IMG/VR virus record: IMGVR_UViG_3300019790_000026
Coordinates: 1 to 12,109 of that record
From: a virus
Lineage: Duplodnaviria > Heunggongvirae > Uroviricota > Caudoviricetes
Reading direction: 5' to 3' (one strand)
Length of the DNA: 12,109 bases
The notes beneath the pieces were generated by a model that had not been told where the DNA came from, did not search any database, and saw only the letters and a program-made list of their open reading frames with translations. Both the position numbers and the translations under genes were made by a program. Below, one piece after another: positions 1 through 10,953 of the stretch; within the stretch, counting starts at the first letter, position 1; each line of letters starts with the position of its first letter.

Positions 1-264
1 TTCCTCGATCCGGTGTTGTCGTTGTCTCAGCAGTGCACTGGTCTGTTCTGCTTCGGCATAGAGCCGCGCCTGCTCCCGGTTATTGGTTTCAGTCAGAATG
101 GACAGGCTGATAAGCTGGCTGTTTTTCTTCGTCAGTTCCTGCGCTTTACTTTTCAGCGCCGCGCGCTGCGTTTCGATGGTGTGGCTGGCGCTGTTAAGCC
201 GCCACGACTGCCAGCCCAGCGCAACGAGTGCCAGCGCCACCACTACTGCCAGCGCACGCGTCAT
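1..264 (-). CDS. Rz/LysB-like i-spanin, partial (3-prime end lies beyond the left edge)
   Basis: Minus-strand ATG at 264..262 preceded by AAGGAG. Translation MTRALAVVVALALVALGWQSW... has an N-terminal transmembrane segment followed by a charged, coiled-coil-like region, as in Rz-family spanins. The start overlaps the upstream stop as ATGA. Confidence 0.6.
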   Translation of the reverse strand, partial: MTRALAVVVALALVALGWQSWRLNSASHTIETQRAALKSKAQELTKKNSQLISLSILTETNNREQARLYAEAEQTSALLRQRQHRIEE

Positions 265-458
265 AGTCCAGCTCCTTTAAGGCACCAGGCCATCTCCCGC
301 GCACGGCGGTTATCCAGCCCCTGATTAAACACACCTTTTACATAAACCCAGCGCGGCAACTGTCGGCACGCATCTGCCCAGCGCCGCTGATTGAGCAATT
401 TCACCAGTGTGGAACTACAGGCATTGCCCGTTGCTGCTTCTGCAGAGCAGACTCCAGT
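261..458 (-). pseudogene. C-terminal fragment of a GH24 (T4/P22-type) phage lysozyme, 5-prime truncated
   Basis: Minus-strand frame ending in TGA at 263..261 translates to ...LLNQRRWADACRQLPRWVYVKGVFNQGLDNRRAREMAWCLKGAGL, which resembles the conserved C-terminus of phage lysozymes. There is no start codon, and an in-frame stop sits at 459-461, so only about 65 codons remain. Confidence 0.45.
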
Positions 459-546
459 TCAGACAGGCGTTCTTCCTGCTCAGACAGAGATTTTTCGGTT
501 CGCGCGCTCAGGTTTTGCTGCTCAGTGGCGACCAGCTCCACGGCTC

Positions 547-2472
547 ATGACAGTGAAAGCAAAGCGTTTTCGCATCGGGGTGGAAGGTGCCACCACCGAC
601 GGACGCGAAATCCAGCGTGAATGGCTGGAACAGATGGCAGCCAGCTACAACCCGGCGGTGTATACCGCGCTGATTAACCTTGAGCACATCAAGTCTTATC
701 TGCCGGACAGCACCTTTAACCGCTACGGCAAGGTGACGGCGCTGTTTGCTGAGGAAATCACGGAAGGTCCGCTGGCAGGCAAGATGGCGCTGTATGCCGA
801 CGTTGAGCCAACGGAGTCCCTGGTGGAACTGGTGAAAAAACGCGACAAGTGGGGTGACTATGGGCCGCTGGATCAGATGCAGCTCACCACCGCCGCACGC
901 TACTGCCAGCTCATTATGAAGGAGCACAAAGAAGGGAAAGATTTCAAAGAGATTGACCTGCTGGCGCGCCAGTCGGAGCGCCATGCGCGGATCGGCAAGT
1001 TTAACAATGGCGGCAACGAAGCCGACTTAAACCCTAACGTCGCCAACCGCAACAAAGGCCCGCGTCGTCAGCCGGAAAAGAACGTTTTCACCGATGAACA
1101 GATTGAGAAGCTGGAAGAAATCTTCCATTCCTCCATGTTCAACTACCAGCGCCACTGGTGGGAAGCCGGAAAAACCAACCGCATCCGCAACCTGCTGAAG
1201 TCACGCCAGATCGGCGCGACCTTCTATTTTGCCCGTGAAGCCCTGATTGACGCCCTGCTAACCGGGCGTAACCAGATTTTCCTTTCCGCCAGCAAGGCAC
1301 AGGCCCACGTCTTTAAGCAGTACATCATCGACTTCGCCAAAGAAGTGGAGGTGGAGCTGAAAGGCGATCCGATAGTGCTTCCTAACGGGGCCACGCTGTA
1401 CTTCCTCGGCACCAATGCCCGCACGGCCCAGAGTTACCACGGCAACCTGTATCTGGATGAATATTTCTGGATACCGAAATTCCAAGAGCTGCGCAAAGTG
1501 GCTTCCGGTATGGCTATTCACAAAAAATGGCGACAAACCTATTTTTCCACGCCATCCAGCCTGACACACAGTGCTTATCCGTTCTGGTCCGGTGCGCTGT
1601 TCAACCGTGGGCGCAACAAAGCCGACAAGGTGGACATCGACCTGTCCCACAGCAATCTGGCCCCCGGCCTGCTGTGCACAGACGGGCAATACCGCCAGAT
1701 AGTCACCGTGGAAGATGCGGTGCGCGGCGGCTGTAACCTGTTCGACCTCGACCAGCTACGCATGGAGTACAGCCCGGACGAATACCAGAACCTGCTGATG
1801 TGCGAGTTCGTGGACGATCTCGCGTCCGTGTTCCCGCTCAGCGAGCTGCAAGCGTGCATGGTGGACAGTTGGGAAATCTGGACCGACTTTCATGCACTGG
1901 CCCTGCGCCCGTTTGGCTGGCGCGAAGTGTGGATCGGTTATGACCCGGCAAAAGGTACGCAGAACGGCGACAGTGCCGGATGCGTGGTGGTGGCACCGCC
2001 AGCCGTGCCGGGTGGTAAGTTCCGCATTCTTGAGCGTCACCAGTGGCGCGGGATGGACTTCCGCGCCCAGGCTGACGCCATCAAAAAACTGACCGAGCAG
2101 TACAACGTGACCTACATCGGCATCGACTCGACAGGTGTCGGCCACGGGGTTTACGAGAACGTGAAAGCGTTTTTTCCAGCCGTCCGGGAGTTTGTCTACA
2201 ACCCCAACGTTAAAAACGCCCTGGTACTCAAGGCCTACGACATTATCAGTCACCGTCGTCTGGAGTTTGACGCCGGACACACCGACATAGCGCAGTCATT
2301 TATGGCAATCCGTCGCGCCACCACCGCCAGCGGCAACCGCCCAACCTATGAAGCCAGCCGCAGCGAAGAAGCCAGCCATGCCGATCTGGCCTGGGCAACA
2401 ATGCACGCACTGTTTAACGAACCGCTGCAGGGCGAGTCCGCCAATACCAGCAATATTGTGGAGATTTTTTGA
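547..2472 (+). CDS. Terminase ATPase/large subunit (P2 gpP-like) with a foreign N-terminus resembling capsid scaffold/protease gpO (apparent fusion)
   Basis: From about codon 98 onward (KRDKWGD..., DFKEIDLL, SRQIGATFYFAREAL, NQIFLSASKAQAHVFK, LYFLGTNARTAQSYHGN) the ORF matches my recollection of the GpP terminase family. Residues 1-97 (KRFRIGVEGATTDGREI...INLEH...FNRYGKV) match the GPO scaffold N-terminal motifs. ATG at 547 is preferred over the tracked TTG at 391. The stop overlaps the portal start. Confidence 0.7.
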   Translation: MTVKAKRFRIGVEGATTDGREIQREWLEQMAASYNPAVYTALINLEHIKSYLPDSTFNRYGKVTALFAEEITEGPLAGKMALYADVEPTESLVELVKKRDKWGDYGPLDQMQLTTAARYCQLIMKEHKEGKDFKEIDLLARQSERHARIGKFNNGGNEADLNPNVANRNKGPRRQPEKNVFTDEQIEKLEEIFHSSMFNYQRHWWEAGKTNRIRNLLKSRQIGATFYFAREALIDALLTGRNQIFLSASKAQAHVFKQYIIDFAKEVEVELKGDPIVLPNGATLYFLGTNARTAQSYHGNLYLDEYFWIPKFQELRKVASGMAIHKKWRQTYFSTPSSLTHSAYPFWSGALFNRGRNKADKVDIDLSHSNLAPGLLCTDGQYRQIVTVEDAVRGGCNLFDLDQLRMEYSPDEYQNLLMCEFVDDLASVFPLSELQACMVDSWEIWTDFHALALRPFGWREVWIGYDPAKGTQNGDSAGCVVVAPPAVPGGKFRILERHQWRGMDFRAQADAIKKLTEQYNVTYIGIDSTGVGHGVYENVKAFFPAVREFVYNPNVKNALVLKAYDIISHRRLEFDAGHTDIAQSFMAIRRATTASGNRPTYEASRSEEASHADLAWATMHALFNEPLQGESANTSNIVEIF

Positions 2473-3497
2473 TGGGAAAGAGTAAGAAAAACCGCGCTGC
2501 GGCGACGAACCAGATCCAGCATAAAAACCAAACTTCAGCCGAAGCATTCAGCTTCGGTGATCCCGTTCCTGTTCTGGACCGCCGCGAATTACTGGACTAT
2601 GTGGAATGCGTAAAGATGGACCGCTGGTATGAGCCACCCGTAAGTTTTGACGGACTGGCGCGAACATTCCGCGCCGCCGTACACCACAGTTCACCGATTG
2701 CAGTAAAGTGCAACATTCTGACCAGCACCTACATCCCTCACCCGCTGCTCAGCCAGCAGGCGTTTTCACGTTTTGTGCAGGACTATCTGGTTTTTGGTAA
2801 CGCCTACCTGGAGAAACGCACGAACCGATTCGGTGAAGTTATCGCCCTTGAGCCTGCGCTGGCAAAATACACCCGACGCGGATTAGACCTAGATACCTAC
2901 TGGTTTGTGCAATACGGCATGACCACGCAGCCGTATCAGTTCACGAAAGGCAGCATTTTTCATCTGATGGAACCGGACATCAACCAGGAGATCTACGGCC
3001 TGCCCGGCTATCTTTCTGCCATCCCATCCGCCCTGCTCAACGAGTCCGCCACGCTGTTCCGCCGAAAGTATTACATTAACGGTAGTCATGCAGGCTTCAT
3101 CATGTACATGACCGATGCCGCGCAGAACCAGGAAGATGTGAACAACCTCCGCAATGCGATGAAAAGTGCCAAAGGCCCTGGCAACTTCCGCAACCTGTTT
3201 ATGTACTCGCCTAATGGTAAAAAAGACGGACTTCAGATTATCCCGTTGTCAGAAGTCACAGCGAAGGATGAGTTTCTGAATATCAAGAACGTGAGCCGTG
3301 ATGACATGATGGCGGCACACCGCGTGCCGCCGCAAATGATGGGAATTATGCCTAATAATGTCGGGGGGTTTGGGGATGTGGAGAAGGCTAGCAAGGTATT
3401 CGTAAGAAACGAATTGATGCCCCTGCAGAAACGATTGCAGGAACTAAATAACTGGTTGGACGAAGAAGTGCTCAATTTTTCAACCTATGAGCTTTAG
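2472..3497 (+). CDS. Portal protein (P2 gpQ-like)
   Basis: 341-aa ORF directly after the terminase gene with TGATG stop/start overlap. Size and position match P2 Q, and the sequence resembles the gpQ portal family. ATG at 2472 is preferred over the tracked TTG at 2469. Confidence 0.85.
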   Translation: MGKSKKNRAAATNQIQHKNQTSAEAFSFGDPVPVLDRRELLDYVECVKMDRWYEPPVSFDGLARTFRAAVHHSSPIAVKCNILTSTYIPHPLLSQQAFSRFVQDYLVFGNAYLEKRTNRFGEVIALEPALAKYTRRGLDLDTYWFVQYGMTTQPYQFTKGSIFHLMEPDINQEIYGLPGYLSAIPSALLNESATLFRRKYYINGSHAGFIMYMTDAAQNQEDVNNLRNAMKSAKGPGNFRNLFMYSPNGKKDGLQIIPLSEVTAKDEFLNIKNVSRDDMMAAHRVPPQMMGIMPNNVGGFGDVEKASKVFVRNELMPLQKRLQELNNWLDEEVLNFSTYEL

Positions 3498-3502
3498 TTT
3501 TA

Positions 3503-3533
3503 AAACGAAGACCATTAGGTCTTCGCTTTATTT
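3503..3533. terminator. Bidirectional intrinsic terminator shared by the convergent portal and retron RT genes
   Basis: Hairpin CGAAGACC (3506-3513), loop ATTA, GGTCTTCG (3518-3525), flanked by an A-run on the left and CTTTATTT on the right, so it reads as stem plus U-tract on both strands. The RT stop codon lies in the loop. Confidence 0.5.
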
Positions 3534-4477
3534 AAAGGGTTCTTTCCATATTTTTTTTCTAATTTGCTAATATAAGTTATTAATCTCCTATGGCTTTTTG
3601 AATCCACACTTAAAATAAATGACAACCATCCCCTAACGTGTTCTATCTCAGAAGACTTACCGCAAAATATATGATGTATCTTTGCTCTAATTTCTTTATA
3701 TTTTTCTCTACCTATCCCAACTTTCTCTTGTGAAATAACTAAACCTGTAACTTTCCTCTGACTACGAGGCCCACTAATACAAGTTTTTTTTGAGTTAATA
3801 ACCAATCCTTCACTTGGGATTATAGAAAATAAAAAATCACGTGCTTTAACAACCTTTTTCATAGACTGTGCAGATAAGGTGAGATCATCGGCATATCTCG
3901 TATATATCAAGCCCCGACTACCTGCATAACCCTGAATACGATAATCAAGTTTAGAACATATTAGATTAGCTAATTTAGGTGATGATGGAGCACCTTGTGG
4001 TAGCAGATTTTTATAACAACATATTTTTGTCAAAACTGAAGATATTAGTCGATTATAACCAAGAGAATGGAACACTCCAAAAACTTTGTTAGCAGTTAAA
4101 CTTGGGAAAAAATCCTCCAAATCAATATTCAGTATAAAGTTTGCCCCAATATGCGGGGTAGCATTATTCAAAATAGATTGGTGCTTTTCAAATCCAATAG
4201 AAAAAGGAGATGACGACAGTTTATCTAAAATGTTACGTAGAACCCATCCTTGTAAGGCTTTAAGTTCTCGAGAAGGTTGGTAAATGGTTCTCATTCTCTT
4301 CTCTGGGCCTTTCTTTTCTACAGTGTAGATCCTATAGCGAAAATCAGCTGTATAGATTAACAACCGAAGTGTTTCAACAGATATGCGAGTCGCCTTAGAC
4401 ATGTCATGCAAATTGTTCATGACAGGTAGGCCGAGATTTCTCAATCTAAAAGTGTTCAAATATTCAGCGGATTTCAT
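3515..4477 (-). CDS. ret: Retron reverse transcriptase, Ec86 / Retron-Eco1 type
   Basis: 320-aa ORF with reverse-transcriptase motifs (NIDLEDFFPS, LPQGAPSSPKLANL, YADDLTLS) and the retron-typical VTG motif (RKVTGLVIS). The translation matches my memory of the published Ec86 RT, and the gene sits immediately downstream of the msr-msd. Confidence 0.93.
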   Translation of the reverse strand: MKSAEYLNTFRLRNLGLPVMNNLHDMSKATRISVETLRLLIYTADFRYRIYTVEKKGPEKRMRTIYQPSRELKALQGWVLRNILDKLSSSPFSIGFEKHQSILNNATPHIGANFILNIDLEDFFPSLTANKVFGVFHSLGYNRLISSVLTKICCYKNLLPQGAPSSPKLANLICSKLDYRIQGYAGSRGLIYTRYADDLTLSAQSMKKVVKARDFLFSIIPSEGLVINSKKTCISGPRSQRKVTGLVISQEKVGIGREKYKEIRAKIHHIFCGKSSEIEHVRGWLSFILSVDSKSHRRLITYISKLEKKYGKNPLNKAKT

Positions 4478-4484
4478 GAAAGTT

Positions 4485-4496
4485 GCGCACCCTTAC
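4485..4496 (-). repeat. Retron a2 inverted repeat (pairs with a1 at 4641-4652)
   Basis: 12-nt exact reverse complement of 4641-4652. Confidence 0.85.
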
Positions 4497-4639
4497 GTCA
4501 GAAAAAACGGGTTTCCTGGTTGGCTCGGAGAGCATCAGGCGATGCTCTCCGTTCCAACAAGGAAAACAGACAGTAACTCAGATTCAATGCAGGATGCCGA
4601 AACAACATCCAGAGGTTGACCTTAATGATAAACCTCTCG

Positions 4640-5563
4640 CTAAGGGTGCGCATACGGAATCTTATCATAGTTAAATGTTGATTTTCTACGGTTTTCAAAA
4701 TTCATAATCTCAAGCCGCAATCGGTCAAGTGTCTTTCTATCAAAGACGCTCCTAACATAGCTAGCCCCCAAAGCAGTGACCTGATAACCATCAGTCATTT
4801 GAAGTATTTTTCGTTCATTTATTAGACGAGAAACAACGGATCTAACAATAATTTTAGATAAAACATCATCTTGCTTTATCGCTTTAAAAGCTAGTTCACA
4901 CAGTGTGCGGTAGTTGACACTATCCAGTAAATAGATACAAGGCAATAGAAACCGCTCTGCGTATAATATATTTCCAATATCTTTTGATACTTTATTTTCT
5001 TTCCTAACCTTCTTAATAGATGCCATTAATTTTTTATATAATCGTAATTTTCTGGCAACATCAATAGATGAATCACACATTTCTTTTAGTTCATTTGAAC
5101 TACAACGCAAAACAGATTTTGAATTAAACTTACGCAACAGGCGAACAGGACCATAGTTAATAAAGCTACGTTTTGATTTAAATTTTGCATCTTGAATGCA
5201 AATCAACTTTCTCCTTAAGTTTTCATTATTAGAGAACGCACCAAGCTCTGTGAAAGACCCCGGACTTTCAGGAAATAAAATTATTACATCGACAGCTTCA
5301 GCCAGAATATTTTCTAAACTTAAAAGGCTATGCTGCCCTTGACCAGCCAAAAGATCATCAAATAGATCTTCTGGATAAAATATATCAACATCACTGAACT
5401 TTGCTAAAAATTGTGATAATTGATGACGCCAAGATTGATGATTAGCAACGTCACCACCACATAGAAAAATGGTTATTTTAATATTAGCTCCTCGATAGAA
5501 GCCTTTCTTTGTGAGATGTCCTATAAGCTGTTGTTGCTGCTCATCGGTAAATTTTTTATTCAT
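4640..5563 (-). CDS. Retron effector: nucleoside 2-deoxyribosyltransferase-like (NDT) domain with a C-terminal putative DNA-binding region
   Basis: 307-aa ORF immediately upstream of msr-msd-ret on the same strand, with RBS GGGGAGA. The N-terminal region (IFLCGGD..., ILFPESPGSFTELGAF) fits the NDT/flavodoxin-like fold with the conserved Glu. Its TAG stop overlaps the a1 repeat. Confidence 0.85.
   Translation of the reverse strand: MNKKFTDEQQQQLIGHLTKKGFYRGANIKITIFLCGGDVANHQSWRHQLSQFLAKFSDVDIFYPEDLFDDLLAGQGQHSLLSLENILAEAVDVIILFPESPGSFTELGAFSNNENLRRKLICIQDAKFKSKRSFINYGPVRLLRKFNSKSVLRCSSNELKEMCDSSIDVARKLRLYKKLMASIKKVRKENKVSKDIGNILYAERFLLPCIYLLDSVNYRTLCELAFKAIKQDDVLSKIIVRSVVSRLINERKILQMTDGYQVTALGASYVRSVFDRKTLDRLRLEIMNFENRRKSTFNYDKIPYAHP
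4641..4652 (-). repeat. Retron a1 inverted repeat; the presumed priming G follows at 4640
   Basis: 12-nt exact reverse complement of 4485-4496, at the 5-prime end of msr. Confidence 0.85.
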
Positions 5564-5704
5564 AATCTCCCCGCTTTTTTTTCTACTTTATACATCAAGT
5601 TATGAATAGATCCAATCTCCATACCACATGGCGCGCGCTCGTATCCCCGCCACGCCTGCCCGCTTTATGCAGTGGTTTTCATGCACATGCATAACATGAG
5701 CAAA

Positions 5705-5730
5705 AGCCCGCCAGTTCTGGCGGATCTGAG
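5705..5730 (-). terminator. Putative intrinsic terminator (minus-strand sense)
   Basis: Perfect hairpin CCGCCAG-N3-CTGGCGG (5708-5726) followed on the minus strand by GCTTTTGC. Confidence 0.3.
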
Positions 5731-6035
5731 CAAAGACGATCCTCAATCGATCATGCGATTTCATGCAGCATAGTCATGCACTGTCAAGGAAGTGAAAATC
5801 CGTATCTGAATGGCCACTTGAAAAACGGATCATACGGGTTTACAAAGATGAATGTTCGCTGTGAACGGGAAGCGGAAGTTAACTTTCAGATAACATAATC
5901 CATATGCACGAGAACCTCTAAAATAGAATGGGACACCTAAGCGGGGTACTTACAACGATTCTTTCCATATTCACAGTTAACACTCTGTTTGGCGTATTTT
6001 TATTCAAATAGCAAACACCAATAAAAGGAGTTTCC

Positions 6036-6371
6036 ATGAACAATATTCCCCCTATACCACAGTTAGGAATTTATGTCTCAAAAATCGATCCCACCCTACG
6101 TATCACTGTAACCGATGTTGATATTGTTGATGGTGAGGATGATTCTCCTGATGATGAATTGTTTTATTTAGTCCACTGGATCGAGGGGGAAGATGAAAGT
6201 GATATGACAGCAATGGGATTTGAGCTAGACCCAGTAGAGTGGCAGGCTTTCGTTGAATCTGAGCAATTAGTGTTTGAGCGTGATCCGTACATGGATTCAA
6301 TCCCCGAAAATTCAAACTTGGCAAAGATTCGGGATTTTCTCATGAAGACTAAACAGAATGATCATTCGTAA
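6036..6371 (+). CDS. Hypothetical small, strongly acidic protein (111 aa)
   Basis: Strong RBS AAAAGGAG 6 nt upstream of ATG. Very Asp/Glu-rich (DVDIVDGEDDSPDDE, EGEDESD). AT-rich relative to the phage core. Divergent from the retron effector. Confidence 0.7.
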   Translation: MNNIPPIPQLGIYVSKIDPTLRITVTDVDIVDGEDDSPDDELFYLVHWIEGEDESDMTAMGFELDPVEWQAFVESEQLVFERDPYMDSIPENSNLAKIRDFLMKTKQNDHS

Positions 6372-6563
6372 GTGTAAGCATCCATCAGGAAAATGGTTTT
6401 GTAAGTGAATCATCAACTTTTAGAGAGTCTCAGACACTCCCACTTCTGCTTCTGACACAAAGCGGACGATCACTTATCAAAATAACCGCCCACCTTACGC
6501 CTTATTTCACTCATTGCCCAAACTAGCCCCCATCAGAATGAATCCTCCTGGGGGCAACATTTC

Positions 6564-6797
6564 TTAATGCAGCCAGCTGTCGTCCTCCCACACCTTCTGC
6601 ATAATTTTCATCACTTGTTTTCTTTCTTCATCCAGTTGCAGTCCGGTTAGTTCCACACCGTTAGAGCTACCTTTGCGAATGCGAATTACCGTTTTGGGAT
6701 ACAGGGGGCGCAGATTGCGGTAAAGCTCGGATTCAAGGGCGTCCAGGGTAGACTGGCTAATCTTCTGCTCTTTATCGATCATTATTTCAATGCGCAT
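6564..6797 (-). CDS. DinI-family protein (DNA-damage-inducible protein I-like)
   Basis: 77-aa product MRIEIMIDKEQKISQSTLDALESELYRNLRPLYP...VWEDDSWLH has the DinI length and pattern (MRIEV..., C-terminal acidic W motif). RBS GGTGA upstream. ATG at 6797 is preferred over the tracked 101-aa extension. Confidence 0.8.
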   Translation of the reverse strand: MRIEIMIDKEQKISQSTLDALESELYRNLRPLYPKTVIRIRKGSSNGVELTGLQLDEERKQVMKIMQKVWEDDSWLH

Positions 6798-6807
6798 AAA
6801 AGTCACC

Positions 6808-6996
6808 TCAGCTGATGACATCCATTGAGCGGTTGTATTCGTGGCTTCTGATTTTTGCCATGAGTTCATCAGTCAATTCAGAAACCCACTGCAGAGCCAG
6901 CCCCTTCTCTTCATCACTACACTCACTAGCCGCTACAAGCTTAAGAAAAAAATCAATGCGCTGGAGCTTCAAAGACTCCAAAAAATAGTCCTGCAT
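6808..6996 (-). CDS. Hypothetical 62-aa protein, first gene of the SOS-boxed operon (possibly the N-terminal part of a Tum-like antirepressor)
   Basis: ORF with strong RBS AGGAGG, directly downstream of the LexA-box promoter and 10 nt upstream of the DinI-like gene. Confidence 0.5.
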   Translation of the reverse strand: MQDYFLESLKLQRIDFFLKLVAASECSDEEKGLALQWVSELTDELMAKIRSHEYNRSMDVIS

Positions 6997-7036
6997 CTTT
7001 CCTCCTATGACACCAAAACAATACTGTATACATAAC

Positions 7037-7056
7037 CACTGTTTATATTTACAGTA
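7037..7056. promoter_or_regulatory. LexA (SOS) box overlapping a putative promoter for the orf62/DinI-like operon
   Basis: cACTGTttatatttACAGta is a perfect CTGT-N8-ACAG with AT-rich spacer. A second half-site (TACTGTATAC) lies at 7022-7031. A TTTACA / TATACT promoter-like pair is on the minus strand. Confidence 0.7.
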
Positions 7057-7148
7057 TATAATAATCTTACTGATGTAAAACGTTTTTTTACGTTCATCGG
7101 CCTGATATGCCTGGTATTATTAAGAGCACGAATTGTCAACCCGCGTAA

Positions 7149-8594
7149 TTAATACAGGTTCCGCCACTTATCATCTTCCTTCAGACGCTGGTTCCGATAG
7201 AAGATACGCAGGCCTGCTCCTGACGGAATACTGCCGCCGCGAAGGAGCAAATCGACTTCTTTCTCGCTGCCATCAAATCCCCTGGACTTCAGTTCATAGA
7301 CGAGCTGCTGTCGCTGATGGTCTGTAATTCGCTGTTTGTAGTCTTTACGCCGTTTCGGTTTCACCTGGCGTAACCTTGCAGCCAGTTCCCGGCGCTCTTT
7401 TTTGCTCATACTGTGCAGGTAATTGTGCAACTCCTTGTCATTCATACGGGTAATATCCGTTCTGGAGTCCCCATCAGCTGATTTGTCTTTCCCTTGTTGG
7501 TTCAAATTTTCAGCAAGGGGACAGTTATTGCCACGAGTCCAAGGGGCGCAAGCGCCCTGGTCGGCTGCCGCCTCCTGAACGTCAACGGCCTTACGAACCA
7601 TTTTCCACTTCACCGCATGAGTGCAGATCTTGCCCTCTGCAATGGGTGACCAGATGCCATAAATACGAATACCGTGATCGCCATATGCGGTCGGTTCTTC
7701 GTTGATTTCATAAGCAGTTCTGATGAGGTGATATTTGCGGGGAACCAGTACGCCGCCCTGCTTCATGATGTAGGTGGCAAAACAACCAGCATCAGCAGCA
7801 GCCAGGATTGCATCAAGACGCGGGTTATCCAGTACCGGCGCACCTGCTTTTTTGTCACCCTGTTGCCTTGCCGCCTGACCAGCCAGCAATCGCAGTTCAC
7901 GGTAAGCCTGACGCCCCGGAATGCCAAAGAAGCGGAATTGCTGAACACGATGCAGAGACGCCCAGGCATTAACGTATTCAGCGTTATCACGCAGGGATTT
8001 ACCCGTTTCCTTGCTGATCTCCCCAGCCAGACCACGCCCGTCAATGTTCTTACTGATGTATTTCGCGATATAGCTTGTTGGCGTACCTTTGCGCGGGTTT
8101 ATCAGCTCAGACTTAAAGCGTGGTCCCGTGTTATTGCCCAGCTCCTCGCGGTCTTCACGGATGGCAAACTTACGCAGTAATGCAGTGATGGCGCGGCGGT
8201 CTTTTTTACGCATGAAACACATGAGATGCCAGTGCACAGTACCGTCATGATGCGGCTCAGCTACCGCACCTGCAGCAACACGCCCGATCTCTGCGGTTGC
8301 ACTCATGACGTAATGTGGCAGTTTCTCTTTTGCCACCTCATTAATCGGTACGCATGGCAGGCAGTGAATCTGAGCCAGAAAACCATCTACCAGCGTTGAA
8401 TCTTCAGTCAGATCGGTAAGCAGCCAGATTTCTGGTGCGGTTAATAAATGAGGTTGCGCTGGGTTCAACTTGTTCCGCAGAATCTGCACATTCATGCCAG
8501 CACGTTCTGCCAGTTGCACCAGGTTGTGGCGCAATGCGAATGCACGACAGGCTTCATCAAAATGTGGATGTTTGGAAACTTGGTAATCAAACAT
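7149..8594 (-). CDS. In-frame fusion ORF: 186 CII-like N-terminus (~115 aa) joined to the C-terminal catalytic part of a gpA-type rolling-circle replication initiator
   Basis: N-terminus [24 protein letters not shown]...[26 protein letters not shown] matches my recollection of phage 186 CII. The downstream part carries the HUH-like HWHLM motif and the paired-tyrosine motif [12 protein letters not shown] typical of P2 gpA / phiX174 A proteins. ATG at 8594 with RBS AGAGG. Confidence 0.65.
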
Positions 8595-8626
8595 GGTCAA
8601 TGCCTCTGATGTATTTCAGAATCGAA

Positions 8627-8848
8627 CTAATTAAGGTTTAGATTGCATTCTGAAAGCGCATCAACGGTCATTGCTGCTATGTTGATCATCACTTTTTCGC
8701 GTTTTTTATCTTTGCGCAGTCGGTGACGGATAAGGCGTCCATCAGCCAACATGTCATTGATGGTATCGATGGATAGCCCTGTCAGCTCGCTATAGCGTTC
8801 AATAGTCACATGAGGGGTGGTAAGAGTGATTGAAATGTTAGGTCTCAT
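8627..8848 (-). CDS. Apl/Cox-like small HTH protein (first early-lytic gene: excisionase / transcription regulator)
   Basis: 73-aa ORF divergent from the CI gene and immediately upstream of the CII-like ORF, as apl is in phage 186. HTH-like segment [21 protein letters not shown]. Confidence 0.5.
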
Positions 8849-8967
8849 GATGCAACATTCCTCGTTTAATGATGATTAATCAGGACGAATACGGATCGTT
8901 TGTATTTTGTGAACACCATAAACATACGATCGCACAGTGAAATCGTCAAGATAAAAGTTCACTTGGA
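8849..8967. promoter_or_regulatory. Immunity switch region between apl-like and cI-like genes (lytic/lysogenic promoters and candidate operators)
   Basis: 119-bp divergent intergenic region containing related motifs ATACGGATCGTTTGTAT and ATACGATCGCAC. Its position matches the pR/pL switch of 186-type phages. Confidence 0.4.
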
Positions 8968-9543
8968 GTGACCATGAATTTGGAGAAAGGCGGACGAGGC
9001 GCTATAGAGCGCATGGTAGAAGCTTATGGATTCAAGACTCGACAGGCGTTGTGCGATCATTTAGGAATCTCTAAAAGTACACTCGCCACACGCTACATGC
9101 GTGACTCATTCCCAGCAGAATGGGTAATCCAGTGCGCCCTTGAAACAGGCACCTCGCTTAATTGGCTCACAACCGGGCATGGTTCAAAGCAAACTTCAGG
9201 TAATACAAATACTATGGAAGTTGCTAAATATGTATTATCTGATGGGGCCTTGTGTGAAGACGGTTTTTATATTTTCGATAGAGAATTTCTACCGTCGGCA
9301 TTCAAGAATCTTTTTGTAATCACAGATAATAATTCTGAATTTATTTGTGATAAGGAATTTGATGATATACGTGATGGTAAATGGGTAATAAGTATTGATG
9401 GCGAAATAACGATCCGTGACATTACTCGTTTACCCGGTGGAAGAATCTTCGTCGAGGGTGGAAATAGAGCCTTCGAGTGCAAGATAGAAGATGTTGAAAT
9501 AATTGGGAAAATTATAAGTTTAACAATTAAGTACGTTAGGTAA
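8968..9543 (+). CDS. cI: CI-type immunity repressor (phage 186 CI-like)
   Basis: 191 aa (186 CI is 192 aa). N-terminal HTH (TRQALCDHLGISKSTLATRYMRD) with a C-terminal oligomerisation-like domain. RBS GGAGTGA. Divergent from the apl-like gene and upstream of int. Confidence 0.8.
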   Translation: MTMNLEKGGRGAIERMVEAYGFKTRQALCDHLGISKSTLATRYMRDSFPAEWVIQCALETGTSLNWLTTGHGSKQTSGNTNTMEVAKYVLSDGALCEDGFYIFDREFLPSAFKNLFVITDNNSEFICDKEFDDIRDGKWVISIDGEITIRDITRLPGGRIFVEGGNRAFECKIEDVEIIGKIISLTIKYVR

Positions 9544-9558
9544 TACCGGGAGGAAACT

Positions 9559-9750
9559 ATGCTTGGTAAGGTATTTTTTGTGGTTTTATCATGCTCTTTG
9601 TTATTAAACCCACTAACTACCTATGCTAAAAATTATCCTTGTTCTGGGAAAAAGGGAGGTGTCTCTCACTGTACCTCCGATGGAAAGTTCGTTTGCAATG
9701 ATGGAACTATTAGTAAATCAAAAAAAATCTGTACTAAAAACTCGCGATAA
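9559..9750 (+). CDS. Small secreted Cys-rich protein (63 aa) inserted between cI and int
   Basis: RBS GGAGGAAACT-ATG. Predicted signal peptide [23 protein letters not shown], then a Lys-rich mature peptide of about 40 aa with 5 Cys. Confidence 0.55.
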
Positions 9751-9936
9751 ATTTTGCTTTTATATCTGCGCCTAATATAACAATGAGCCGCAGGCTAACC
9801 GCAAAAGTCACATACTCACATAGCAAAAAATAGCTAACTTCATTATGGCTTCAGTGAGATGTATGGTCGCAGGATTTCATACATTGACACTGGTTATACA
9901 TACAGTAAAAATGCTCTCTACTGGAGGGCATTTTTT

Positions 9937-10953
9937 ATGGCAGTACGAAAACTCACCACAGGAAAATGGCTTTGCGAATGTTACCCCGCCGGACGTAGTG
10001 GACGTCGTGTGCGTAAACAATTCGCCACCAAAGGCGAAGCTCTGGCTTTTGAGCGTCACACGATGGAAGAAACCGAAGCAAAGCCCTGGCTGGGCGAATC
10101 AGTGGATCGTCGGACATTGAAAGACGTGATTGAGCTATGGTTCAAACTACATGGTAAATCTCTGACAGCTGGGCAGCATGTCTATGACAAACTGCTGTTG
10201 ATGGTTGACGCTCTGGGCAATCCCCTTGCAACTGATCTAACCTCTAAAATGTTTGCCCACTATCGAGATAAACGCCTGACAGGTGAGATCTACTTCAGCG
10301 AGAAATGGAAGAAAGGAGCAAGCCCGGTCACCATTAACCTGGAGCAAAGCTATCTAAGTAGTGTTTTTAGCGAACTATCCCGCCTGGGCGAATGGTCGTA
10401 TCCGAACCCACTGGAGAACATGCGAAAATTCACCATCGCAGAAAAAGAGATGGCATGGCTTACCCATGAGCAGATTGTTGAACTGCTGGCTGATTGCAAA
10501 CGTCAGGACCCAATTCTGGCACTGGTAGTCAAGATATGCCTAAGCACAGGCGCACGCTGGCGAGAAGCAATAAATCTTACCCGCTCGCAAGTGACCAAAT
10601 ACCGAATTACCTTTGTAAGAACGAAGGGGAAGAAAAACAGAAGCATCCCTATCAGTAAAGAGCTTTACGAAGAGATCATGGCGCTTGATGGGTTCAATTT
10701 CTTTACAGACTGCTATTTTCAATTTTTATCCGTGATGGAAAAAACGTCTATCGTGCTCCCTCGCGGTCAACTGACACACGTTCTGCGCCATACGTTTGCG
10801 GCGCACTTCATGATGTCGGGTGGAAATATCCTTGCTTTGCAAAAAATCCTCGGACATCACGATATAAAAATGACTATGCGCTATGCCCATTTAGCACCCG
10901 ATCATCTTGAGACGGCTCTGAGATTCAACCCCCTCGCAACGCTAGAAGTGTGA
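9937..10953 (+). CDS. int: Tyrosine integrase (P2/186 Int family)
   Basis: 338 aa. Catalytic residues in context: ...STGARWREA..., ...HVLRHTFA..., ...MRYAHL.... RBS GGAGGG. ATG at 9937 is preferred over the tracked start at 9859. Confidence 0.9.
   Translation: MAVRKLTTGKWLCECYPAGRSGRRVRKQFATKGEALAFERHTMEETEAKPWLGESVDRRTLKDVIELWFKLHGKSLTAGQHVYDKLLLMVDALGNPLATDLTSKMFAHYRDKRLTGEIYFSEKWKKGASPVTINLEQSYLSSVFSELSRLGEWSYPNPLENMRKFTIAEKEMAWLTHEQIVELLADCKRQDPILALVVKICLSTGARWREAINLTRSQVTKYRITFVRTKGKKNRSIPISKELYEEIMALDGFNFFTDCYFQFLSVMEKTSIVLPRGQLTHVLRHTFAAHFMMSGGNILALQKILGHHDIKMTMRYAHLAPDHLETALRFNPLATLEV

What the first reader, a model, noticed from the sequence alone, without database searches (positions are those of the whole stretch)
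4636..4656. Effector stop codon is built from the last bases of a1 plus the presumed branching G
The effector's last codons (YAHP) and TAG stop (4642..4640) are encoded by the a1 repeat and the first msr bases, so the ORF end and the ncRNA 5-prime end overlap by about 12 nt. The G of TAG at 4640 is the residue immediately after a1, which I recall as the branching/priming G. This constrains both sequences and places the msr promoter inside the effector ORF.
Basis: partly seen in the sequence, partly recalled or inferred. Interest (0 to 1): 0.35.

Follow-up and report, generated by a model that had tools for sequence, protein, structure and literature searches.

The report
Retron Ec86 effector stop overlaps priming G
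This is the well-studied retron Ec86 (Retron-Eco1) of E. coli B/BL21, and the effector gene really does end in a TAG whose G is the retron RNA's priming guanosine, but this is a compact-operon detail shared by about half of its close relatives rather than a new mechanism.

Summary
On the minus strand the 307-aa effector ORF (5563..4640) ends ...TAT GCG CAC CCT TAG. The repeat a1 (TGCGCACCCTTA) is 4652..4641. The G at 4640 is both the third base of the stop codon and the first base after a1.

The locus is 100% identical to retron Ec86/Retron-Eco1 of E. coli B/BL21, and both proteins are identical to PDB chains. Published work on this ncRNA puts the priming guanosine immediately after a1, inside a UAGC motif.

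I compared 51 related loci plus this window:
- In 10, the stop is this same UAG.
- In 28, the ORF stops 12-19 nt earlier.
- In 4, the ORF reads past the G in another frame.
- In 10, the ORF stops 20-51 nt upstream of the G.

UUAGC is invariant in the 19 aligned ncRNAs of the Eco1-like clade, whether or not it is used as a stop. The a1/a2 helix covaries even where that changes the last residue (Pro/Leu). So the RNA sets the sequence and the protein tail follows it.

The inference of an msr promoter inside the ORF is not supported. No promoter-like site lies just upstream, the only -10-like hexamer is not conserved, and the literature treats effector-ncRNA-RT as one operon. The system is already known, and interest is low.

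The parts
4640..5563 (-). Effector gene (307 aa; NDT-like N-glycosidase plus DNA-binding domain) of retron Ec86/Eco1, stop codon included
   Evidence: ORF list. 100% identical over 307/307 residues to PDB 7V9X_C/7XJG/8QBK 'Retron Ec86 putative ribosyltransferase/DNA-binding protein'. NCBIfam NF038232 176.6 bits. PADLOC NDT_II-A 2.7e-94.
4640..4642 (-). Effector stop codon TAG; T and A are the last two bases of a1
4640..4640 (-). Priming (branching) guanosine G14 of msr, which is also the third base of the stop codon
   Evidence: First base after a1. Invariant in 19/19 aligned ncRNAs. The literature on this same ncRNA places the priming G immediately after a1 in UAGC. The 2'-5' branch itself was not tested here.
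4641..4652 (-). Inverted repeat a1 (TGCGCACCCTTA); encodes the third base of Tyr304, then Ala-His-Pro and TA of the stop
   Evidence: Perfect 12-nt complement of a2. Paired in the MFE fold. 7 of 12 pairs show compensatory changes across 19 relatives.
4484..4653 (-). Retron ncRNA (msr-msd) from the 5' A to the end of a2
   Evidence: Fold -81.1 kcal/mol, z = -9.2. Aligns with ncRNAs of 18 related loci. The 5' end is taken from my recollection of the published ncRNA sequence and was not mapped here.
4592..4610 (-). msr stem-loop with UUU loop (RT recognition hairpin)
   Evidence: Fold positions 44-62. Loop and flanks invariant or nearly so in alignment A2. UUU recognition loop cited.
4512..4565 (-). 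Long msd hairpin (template for the msDNA stem)
   Evidence: Fold positions 89-142.
4484..4495 (-). Inverted repeat a2 (TAAGGGTGCGCA); contains an SD-like AAGGG 12 nt before the RT start
3515..4477 (-). Retron Ec86 reverse transcriptase (320 aa), stop codon included
   Evidence: Identical 1-320 to PDB 7V9U_A. Pfam RVT_1. NCBIfam NF038233 287.6 bits. PADLOC RT_II-A 7e-128.
5587..5615 (-). Candidate operon promoter (TTGGAT, 17 nt, TATAAA) 24 nt upstream of the effector ATG; inference only
   Evidence: Read by eye. It fell below the scan's rule that the last base of the -10 be T. A terminator-like hairpin lies further upstream at 5724-5707.

Best explanation
The region is the junction between the effector gene and the ncRNA of retron Ec86 (Retron-Eco1, type II-A3), carried in a defective P2-like prophage of E. 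coli B. The three parts (effector, msr-msd ncRNA, RT) are packed with no spacer. The effector reading frame runs 11 nt into the ncRNA and stops at the first in-frame stop, which is the UAG of the invariant UUAGC priming motif. Its G (G14, window 4640) supplies the 2'-OH from which the RT starts msDNA synthesis. The sequence here is set by the RNA: a1/a2 pairing and the UAGC motif. The last four residues of the effector (YAHP) are largely a translation of a1. Most likely the ncRNA is not made from a promoter of its own. It is probably part of the effector-ncRNA-RT transcript that starts upstream of the effector, and a1/a2 folding and RT binding, plus trimming, define the mature RNA. One consequence is that a ribosome finishing the effector covers a1, so on a given RNA molecule translation of the ORF end and a1/a2 pairing exclude each other. 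Shown: sequence anatomy, identity with Ec86, conservation and covariation. From the literature: G14 is the priming G. Inferred: co-transcription, processing and the translation/folding exclusion.
For: Identity: 100% DNA identity to BL21(DE3), REL606 and other B strains. Effector and RT are identical to Ec86 PDB chains. PADLOC NDT_II-A and RT_II-A. Anatomy. Priming G after a1 within UAGC: PMC11754653. Comparative, 52 loci including the window: stop = UAG carrying the G in 10; stop 12-19 nt upstream in 28; read-through in another frame in 4; stop 20-51 nt upstream in 10. Of the 120 closest protein clusters, 54 end in H-P or H-L, as expected for ...CAC CYT TAG, and 15 carry the +1-frame 'TFSE' translation of a1-G-CGAG. 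All 8 H[PL]-ending loci with DNA in hand stop at the UAG. RNA is primary: T11 T12 A13 G14 C15 are invariant in 19/19 ncRNAs, including 10 where the TAG is not the stop. a1/a2 has 7/12 pairs with compensatory change and 88% of cells paired, against 21-57% for slid controls. The C10-G to U-A change (7 sequences) turns the last codon from Pro to Leu. Operon view: 'effector-ncRNA-rrt with its native promoter', 'full retron operon'; no promoter-like hit just upstream of msr. In the related Retron-Eco11 the ncRNA gene is reported to overlap the 3' end of the effector and the 5' end of the RT gene (PMC12746101).
Against: The transcription start and the true 5' end of the primary ncRNA transcript were not measured, so co-transcription is an inference. 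The consensus promoter scan is crude and would miss weak or non-sigma-70 promoters. A TATGAT hexamer (4669-4664) sits 10 nt before the msr 5' A. The in-frame relation of TAG and ORF is commoner than 1/3 in the Eco1 clade (14/20), and an unrelated a1 in an Elusimicrobia locus (L050) shows the same arrangement, which leaves room for some selective value of the overlap. The loci are not phylogenetically independent.
Confidence: 0.8

Rival explanations
1. Internal promoter: msr-msd-RT is transcribed from its own promoter inside the 3' part of the effector ORF, so the coding sequence also carries promoter elements.
For: Older retron descriptions speak of a single msr-msd-RT transcript (PMC8867640). 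A -10-like TATGAT lies at 4669-4664, 10 nt before the msr 5' A. Three weak promoter-like matches lie deeper in the ORF on the minus strand, ending at 5379, 5225 and 5029.
Against: There is no acceptable -35 at 16-18 nt and no TG extension. The number of promoter-like hits in the region (5) equals the shuffled expectation (5.3 +/- 2.3) and none is within 370 nt of msr. TATGAT is the Tyr-Asp codon pair and is replaced by TATGGT, TATGCT, AGTGTT etc. in relatives with other residues. Ec86 is handled experimentally as one operon with a native promoter upstream.
Confidence: 0.2
2. Functional coupling: placing the stop codon on the priming G is selected because it links effector synthesis to ncRNA folding and priming. 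A terminating ribosome would melt a1/a2, and a primed, branched G14 would make that RNA unreadable as a stop, which would tune effector:msDNA stoichiometry.
For: The arrangement is kept in 9 of 20 Eco1-clade loci down to 36-38% effector identity (L049, L016), and recurs with an unrelated 19-nt a1 in L050. The TAG is in frame in 14/20. The RT's SD-like AAGGG also lies in a2, so both flanking ORFs touch the same helix.
Against: 42 of 52 loci do without it. Close relatives differ only by a stop 4-5 codons earlier (L003 vs L004; L009 vs L008) or by a frameshift that reads through the G (L019, L012, L013, L015), with the ncRNA unchanged. Eco1 ncRNA and RT make msDNA without the effector ORF.
Confidence: 0.12
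3. Pure coincidence with no evolutionary persistence: the ORF happens to be in the frame of the TAG in this one strain.
For: The prior chance is 1 in 3 for any ORF that enters a1.
Against: The same stop is used in 9 other species-level loci, and 54 of 120 protein clusters have the matching C-terminus.
Confidence: 0.05

Closest known systems
Retron Ec86 / Retron-Eco1 (type II-A3) of E. coli B and BL21
   Same: It is this element: 100% DNA identity over 3400-5700, effector and RT identical to the PDB chains, same ncRNA with priming G after a1 in UAGC, same effector-ncRNA-RT order.
   Different: Nothing in the retron itself. In the papers I could search I found no explicit statement that the effector stop codon contains the priming G.
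Retron-Eco11 (type III-A3, PRTase effector; PMC12746101)
   Same: Published description that the ncRNA gene overlaps the 3' end of the effector gene and the 5' end of the RT gene, with the effector stop codon inside the a1/a2 inverted-repeat stem.
   Different: In Eco11 the stop codon supplies two bulged adenosines within a 25-bp stem and the branching G is rG28, further downstream. The stop does not include the priming G. The effector family is different.
Retron-Sen2 (St85), Retron-Eco9, Retron-Vmi1 (other type II-A, NDT effector)
   Same: Same effector and RT families by NCBIfam naming. The accessory proteins of Eco1, Eco9 and Sen2 are all predicted NDT-like plus DNA-binding proteins.
   Different: Vmi1 and Sen2 are described as msr-msd, then the effector ORF, then ret (abstract of PMC11701397). 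The effector 3' end therefore cannot overlap a1 or the priming G.

Membership tests
Retron type II-A3 (Retron-Eco1/Ec86) | Retron-clade reverse transcriptase | tested here: met
   PADLOC RT_II-A 7.1e-128; NCBIfam NF038233 287.6 bits, cutoff 235; identical to PDB 7V9U_A.
Retron type II-A3 (Retron-Eco1/Ec86) | Effector with N-terminal NDT-like domain and C-terminal DNA-binding domain (Mestre et al. 2020) | tested here: met
   PADLOC NDT_II-A 2.7e-94; NCBIfam NF038232; identical to PDB 7V9X_C. The Pfam copy used gave no hit; homologues carry PF28093.
Retron type II-A3 (Retron-Eco1/Ec86) | ncRNA flanked by inverted repeats a1/a2 next to the RT gene | tested here: met
   12-nt perfect repeat; fold z = -9.2; covariation in 7/12 pairs.
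Retron type II-A3 (Retron-Eco1/Ec86) | Conserved unpaired G immediately 3' of a1 that primes via its 2'-OH | tested here: inconclusive
   The sequence requirement is met: G4640 follows a1 and is invariant in 19/19. The 2'-5' branch is biochemical and rests on the literature for this identical sequence.
Retron type II-A3 (Retron-Eco1/Ec86) | Production of msDNA and anti-phage defence requiring all three parts | not testable with these tools
   Published for Ec86; not a computation.
Rfam curated RNA families | Score at or above the gathering threshold of any curated covariance model | tested here: not met
   0 matches over the whole window. This says nothing against the retron, because the ncRNA matches the published Eco1 ncRNA directly.

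The most novel reading that the evidence does not exclude
The stop-on-priming-G arrangement is a selected switch. Each operon transcript is either read to its end by a ribosome, which melts a1/a2 and yields effector, or folded and primed at G14, which destroys the stop codon as a readable signal. This would set the effector:msDNA ratio that keeps the toxin sequestered.
Probability: 0.1. Interest if true: 0.5.

Novelty: already known. Interest (0 to 1): 0.2.

Why it matters
There are three practical consequences:
- In the native operon, a priming-G mutation also edits the effector. G14 to C or T turns TAG into a Tyr codon and adds 6 residues (YREVYH), while G14 to A keeps a stop. 'msDNA-dead' controls made in the full operon are therefore not protein-neutral unless A is chosen.
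- Recoding this amber codon (TAG to TAA) in B-strain genome projects would replace the priming guanosine with A, at the position where the ncRNA is least tolerant of substitution.
- C-terminal tags or truncations of the effector in its native context alter a1.

Conceptually, this is a clean example of an ORF tail that is just the translation of a structured RNA. It also shows that the whole II-A3 family has no room for a promoter between effector and ncRNA.

Tried and rejected
- Rfam at gathering thresholds gave no hit in the window.
- Pfam gave no family for the effector; NCBIfam, PADLOC and PDB identified it.
- The first inverted-repeat search, using perfect matches only, mis-called several loci. 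I re-ran it with G-U pairs, one mismatch and a T[TA]AG anchor. I then corrected L010, L044 and L049 by hand after translating all frames.
- L010 has no recognisable a2 or RT and was left out of the RNA alignment.
- My first hand-read coordinates for a1 were off by one and were corrected by script.
- I first expected G14 to C to extend the effector by about 50 residues. The script shows only 6.
- Literature searches for 'G14' with Ec86 found nothing. Searches for an explicit description of the effector/msr overlap in Eco1 also found nothing.
- I did not build a covariance model, because the anchored search and the MAFFT alignment were enough.
- I considered whether the 'YDR' codons (TATGATAG) hide a conserved -10. 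I rejected this because the hexamer changes whenever the residues change.

Full report
OBSERVATION. On the minus strand a 307-aa ORF runs from 5563 to 4640. Its last codons are TAT GCG CAC CCT TAG, with the TAG at 4642..4640. The 12-nt repeat TGCGCACCCTTA (a1) occupies 4652..4641. Its perfect complement TAAGGGTGCGCA (a2) occupies 4495..4484, 6 nt before the ATG (4477) of a 320-aa ORF. If the RNA starts at the A of AUGCGCACCC (4653; that start is from my recollection of the published ncRNA sequence), this G is nucleotide 14 and the ORF and RNA share 14 nt. The 171-nt RNA folds with a1/a2 paired, G14 unpaired at the foot of the stem, two msr hairpins and a long msd hairpin (MFE -81.1 kcal/mol; shuffles -46.1 +/- 3.8; z = -9.2).

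IDENTITY. Window 3400-5700 is 100% identical to BL21(DE3), REL606, E. coli C and other B-lineage chromosomes. RefSeq annotates the two ORFs there as 'retron St85 family effector protein' and 'retron St85 family RNA-directed DNA polymerase'.
- The effector is identical over all 307 residues to PDB 7V9X_C/7XJG/8QBK, 'Retron Ec86 putative ribosyltransferase/DNA-binding protein'.
- The RT is identical over 320 residues to 7V9U_A.
- PADLOC gives NDT_II-A and RT_II-A; NCBIfam gives NF038232 and NF038233.
- Mestre et al. list Retron-Eco1 (Ec86) as type II-A3.
- The flanks are P2-like prophage genes: terminase, portal, a gpA/CII remnant, CI and integrase.
So this is the best-studied retron of all.

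THE G. I could not test the branch, but the literature covers this exact sequence. [quoted passage not shown] UAGC is 4642..4639 here.

COMPARISON WITH RELATIVES. The effector has hundreds of homologues (385 at E <= 1e-5). An alignment of 30 of them (41-84% identity) shows that the C-terminus ...A-H-P or ...A-H-L is kept in most.

I fetched 75 loci from one genome per species. For the 51 with a near full-length match, plus the window, I located the effector stop, the a1/a2 repeat and the G after a1 (with hand checks). The results for these 52 are:
- Stop = the UAG that carries the G: 10 loci (the window, L002 Pectobacterium, L003 Serratia, L005, L006 Vibrio, L009 Bowmanella, L016, L017 Advenella, L049 Aeromonas, L050 Elusimicrobia).
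- Stop 12-19 nt upstream, inside or abutting a1: 28 loci.
- ORF reads past the G in another frame: 4 loci (L019, stop 7 nt later; L012, L013, L015, 61 nt later).
- Stop 20-51 nt upstream: 10 loci.

Within the Eco1-like clade (a1 ...CC[C/T]TTA|G|CGA; 20 loci) the TAG is in frame with the ORF in 14. Five of these have an earlier in-frame stop 4-5 codons upstream: L004, L007, L008, L010 and L011. The Bacteroidota-type loci (TTTTTA|G|AC[GA]) always stop just before or within the 5' part of a1. L050 has an unrelated 19-nt a1 yet uses the same arrangement.

Among the 120 closest protein clusters:
- 54 end in H-P or H-L, the translation of CAC CYT before TAG.
- 15 carry TFSE..., the +1-frame translation of a1-G-CGAG.
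- Most of the rest are 4-6 residues shorter.

WHICH CONSTRAINT WINS. In an alignment of 19 Eco1-clade ncRNAs, T11 T12 A13 G14 C15 are invariant. This includes the 10 sequences in which the TAG is not the stop. The a1/a2 helix is 88% paired, against 21-57% when the partner is slid. It has compensatory changes in 7 of 12 pairs, and 0 of 500 shuffles reach its covariation score. One covarying pair (C10-G to U-A, 7 sequences) changes the last codon from Pro to Leu. Close pairs of loci differ only in whether a stop lies 4-5 codons earlier (L003/L004, L009/L008), with the RNA unchanged. So the RNA dictates the sequence and the last four or five residues are dispensable. 'Constrains both sequences' is true mostly in one direction.

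PROMOTER. What the anatomy requires is only that transcription start upstream of a1. The evidence against an internal promoter is:
- The sigma-70 scan finds 5 promoter-like sites in 4400-6100, against 5.3 +/- 2.3 in shuffles. None lies on the minus strand between 5029 and the msr start.
- The hexamer TATGAT (4669-4664) is 10 nt from the 5' A but lacks a -35.
- It is the Tyr-Asp codon pair, and it changes in relatives wherever those residues change.
- Ec86 papers clone and describe 'effector-ncRNA-rrt' as one unit with its native promoter or as 'the full retron operon'.

Upstream of the effector ATG I read a plausible TTGGAT-17-TATAAA (5615-5587), with a terminator-like hairpin before it (5724-5707). 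In most of the family the stop abuts or overlaps a1, so there is no room for an intergenic promoter anywhere. I therefore favour co-transcription followed by folding and trimming. This is an inference, and only 5'-end mapping can settle it.

MECHANISM AND RIVALS. The best reading (0.8 for the anatomy and RNA-first constraint, about 0.6 for co-transcription) is a compact operon in which the ORF runs into the ncRNA and halts at the motif's own UAG. The rivals are:
- An internal promoter (0.2).
- A selected translation/folding switch (0.12). The in-frame excess (14/20, P about 9e-4 uncorrected for ancestry) and the independent case L050 support it. The 42 of 52 loci that lack the arrangement, and the fact that ncRNA plus RT make msDNA without the effector ORF, count against it.
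- Mere coincidence in one strain (0.05), already contradicted by the comparative data.

KNOWN OR NEW. The system is already known. A related overlap is published for Retron-Eco11, where the ncRNA gene overlaps both neighbouring genes and the effector stop codon sits in the a1/a2 stem. There the branching G is rG28, not part of the stop. I found no paper in the searchable library that states the Eco1 stop codon contains the priming G. The library lacks the 1989-1991 Ec86 papers and the subscription structure papers, so I cannot say it is unreported. The comparative tally above is a modest descriptive addition.

PRACTICAL POINT. G14 to C or T converts TAG to a Tyr codon and extends the effector by YREVYH, while G14 to A keeps a stop. 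Priming-dead mutants, amber recoding and C-terminal tagging in the native operon all touch two components at once.

LIMITS. No RNA ends, branch position or protein products were measured. Loci are one per species but not independent. a1/a2 calls in AT-rich Bacteroidota loci rest on short stems.

Noticed in passing
window 1-843: The left end is arranged differently from BL21(DE3) and from every complete E. coli genome searched. Window 1-544 = L001 1012-1555. Window 539-843 is the reverse complement of L001 1868-2172. Window 834-10700 is again collinear with L001, from 2435 to the end of that fetched locus (12301). L001 1556-1867 and 2173-2434 are absent. The result is an in-frame gpO-N-terminus::terminase ORF (391..2472). 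No record among 5,426 genomes covers window 300-1100 in one place. I could not tell whether this is a real rearrangement, a misassembly or an edited window.
   Followed up: partly
window 3515-4477 (-): RefSeq annotates the Ec86 RT as a shorter 295-aa protein. The 320-aa ORF starting at 4477 is the one in the solved structures, so the RefSeq start is probably 25 codons too late.
   Followed up: partly
window 4484-4495 (-): The only SD-like sequence before the RT start (AAGGG, 4494-4490, 12 nt from the ATG) lies inside a2. It is sequestered whenever a1/a2 pairs. In relatives the predicted RT start lies near or overlaps a2; the offsets are rough because the longest ORF was taken.
   Followed up: no
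window 7149-8600 (-): One ORF joins a CII/CP76-like N-terminus to the C-terminal part of replication protein gpA. RefSeq marks both as incomplete pseudogenes. This deletion is one reason the P2-like prophage is defective.
   Followed up: no
L012, L013, L015 (Vibrio, Pseudoalteromonas); protein clusters P0084-P0118: In a sizeable subgroup the effector ORF reads through a1 and the priming G in the +1 frame (…RTFSE…), giving 15-20 extra residues encoded by the first msr hairpin. It is unknown whether these tails are made or matter.
   Followed up: partly
L016 (Bacteroidales MAG) and L050 (Elusimicrobia MAG): L016 carries an Eco1-type a1 (GCGCACCCTTAGCGAG) nearly identical to the enterobacterial one although the effector is only 38% identical. 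L050 has the stop on the G with a completely different 19-nt a1. This hints at horizontal spread and at independent origin of the overlap, respectively.
   Followed up: no
window 5707-5724 (-) and 5587-5615 (-): A terminator-like hairpin is followed by a TTGGAT-17-TATAAA promoter-like pair just upstream of the effector gene. This would insulate the retron operon from prophage transcription.
   Followed up: no
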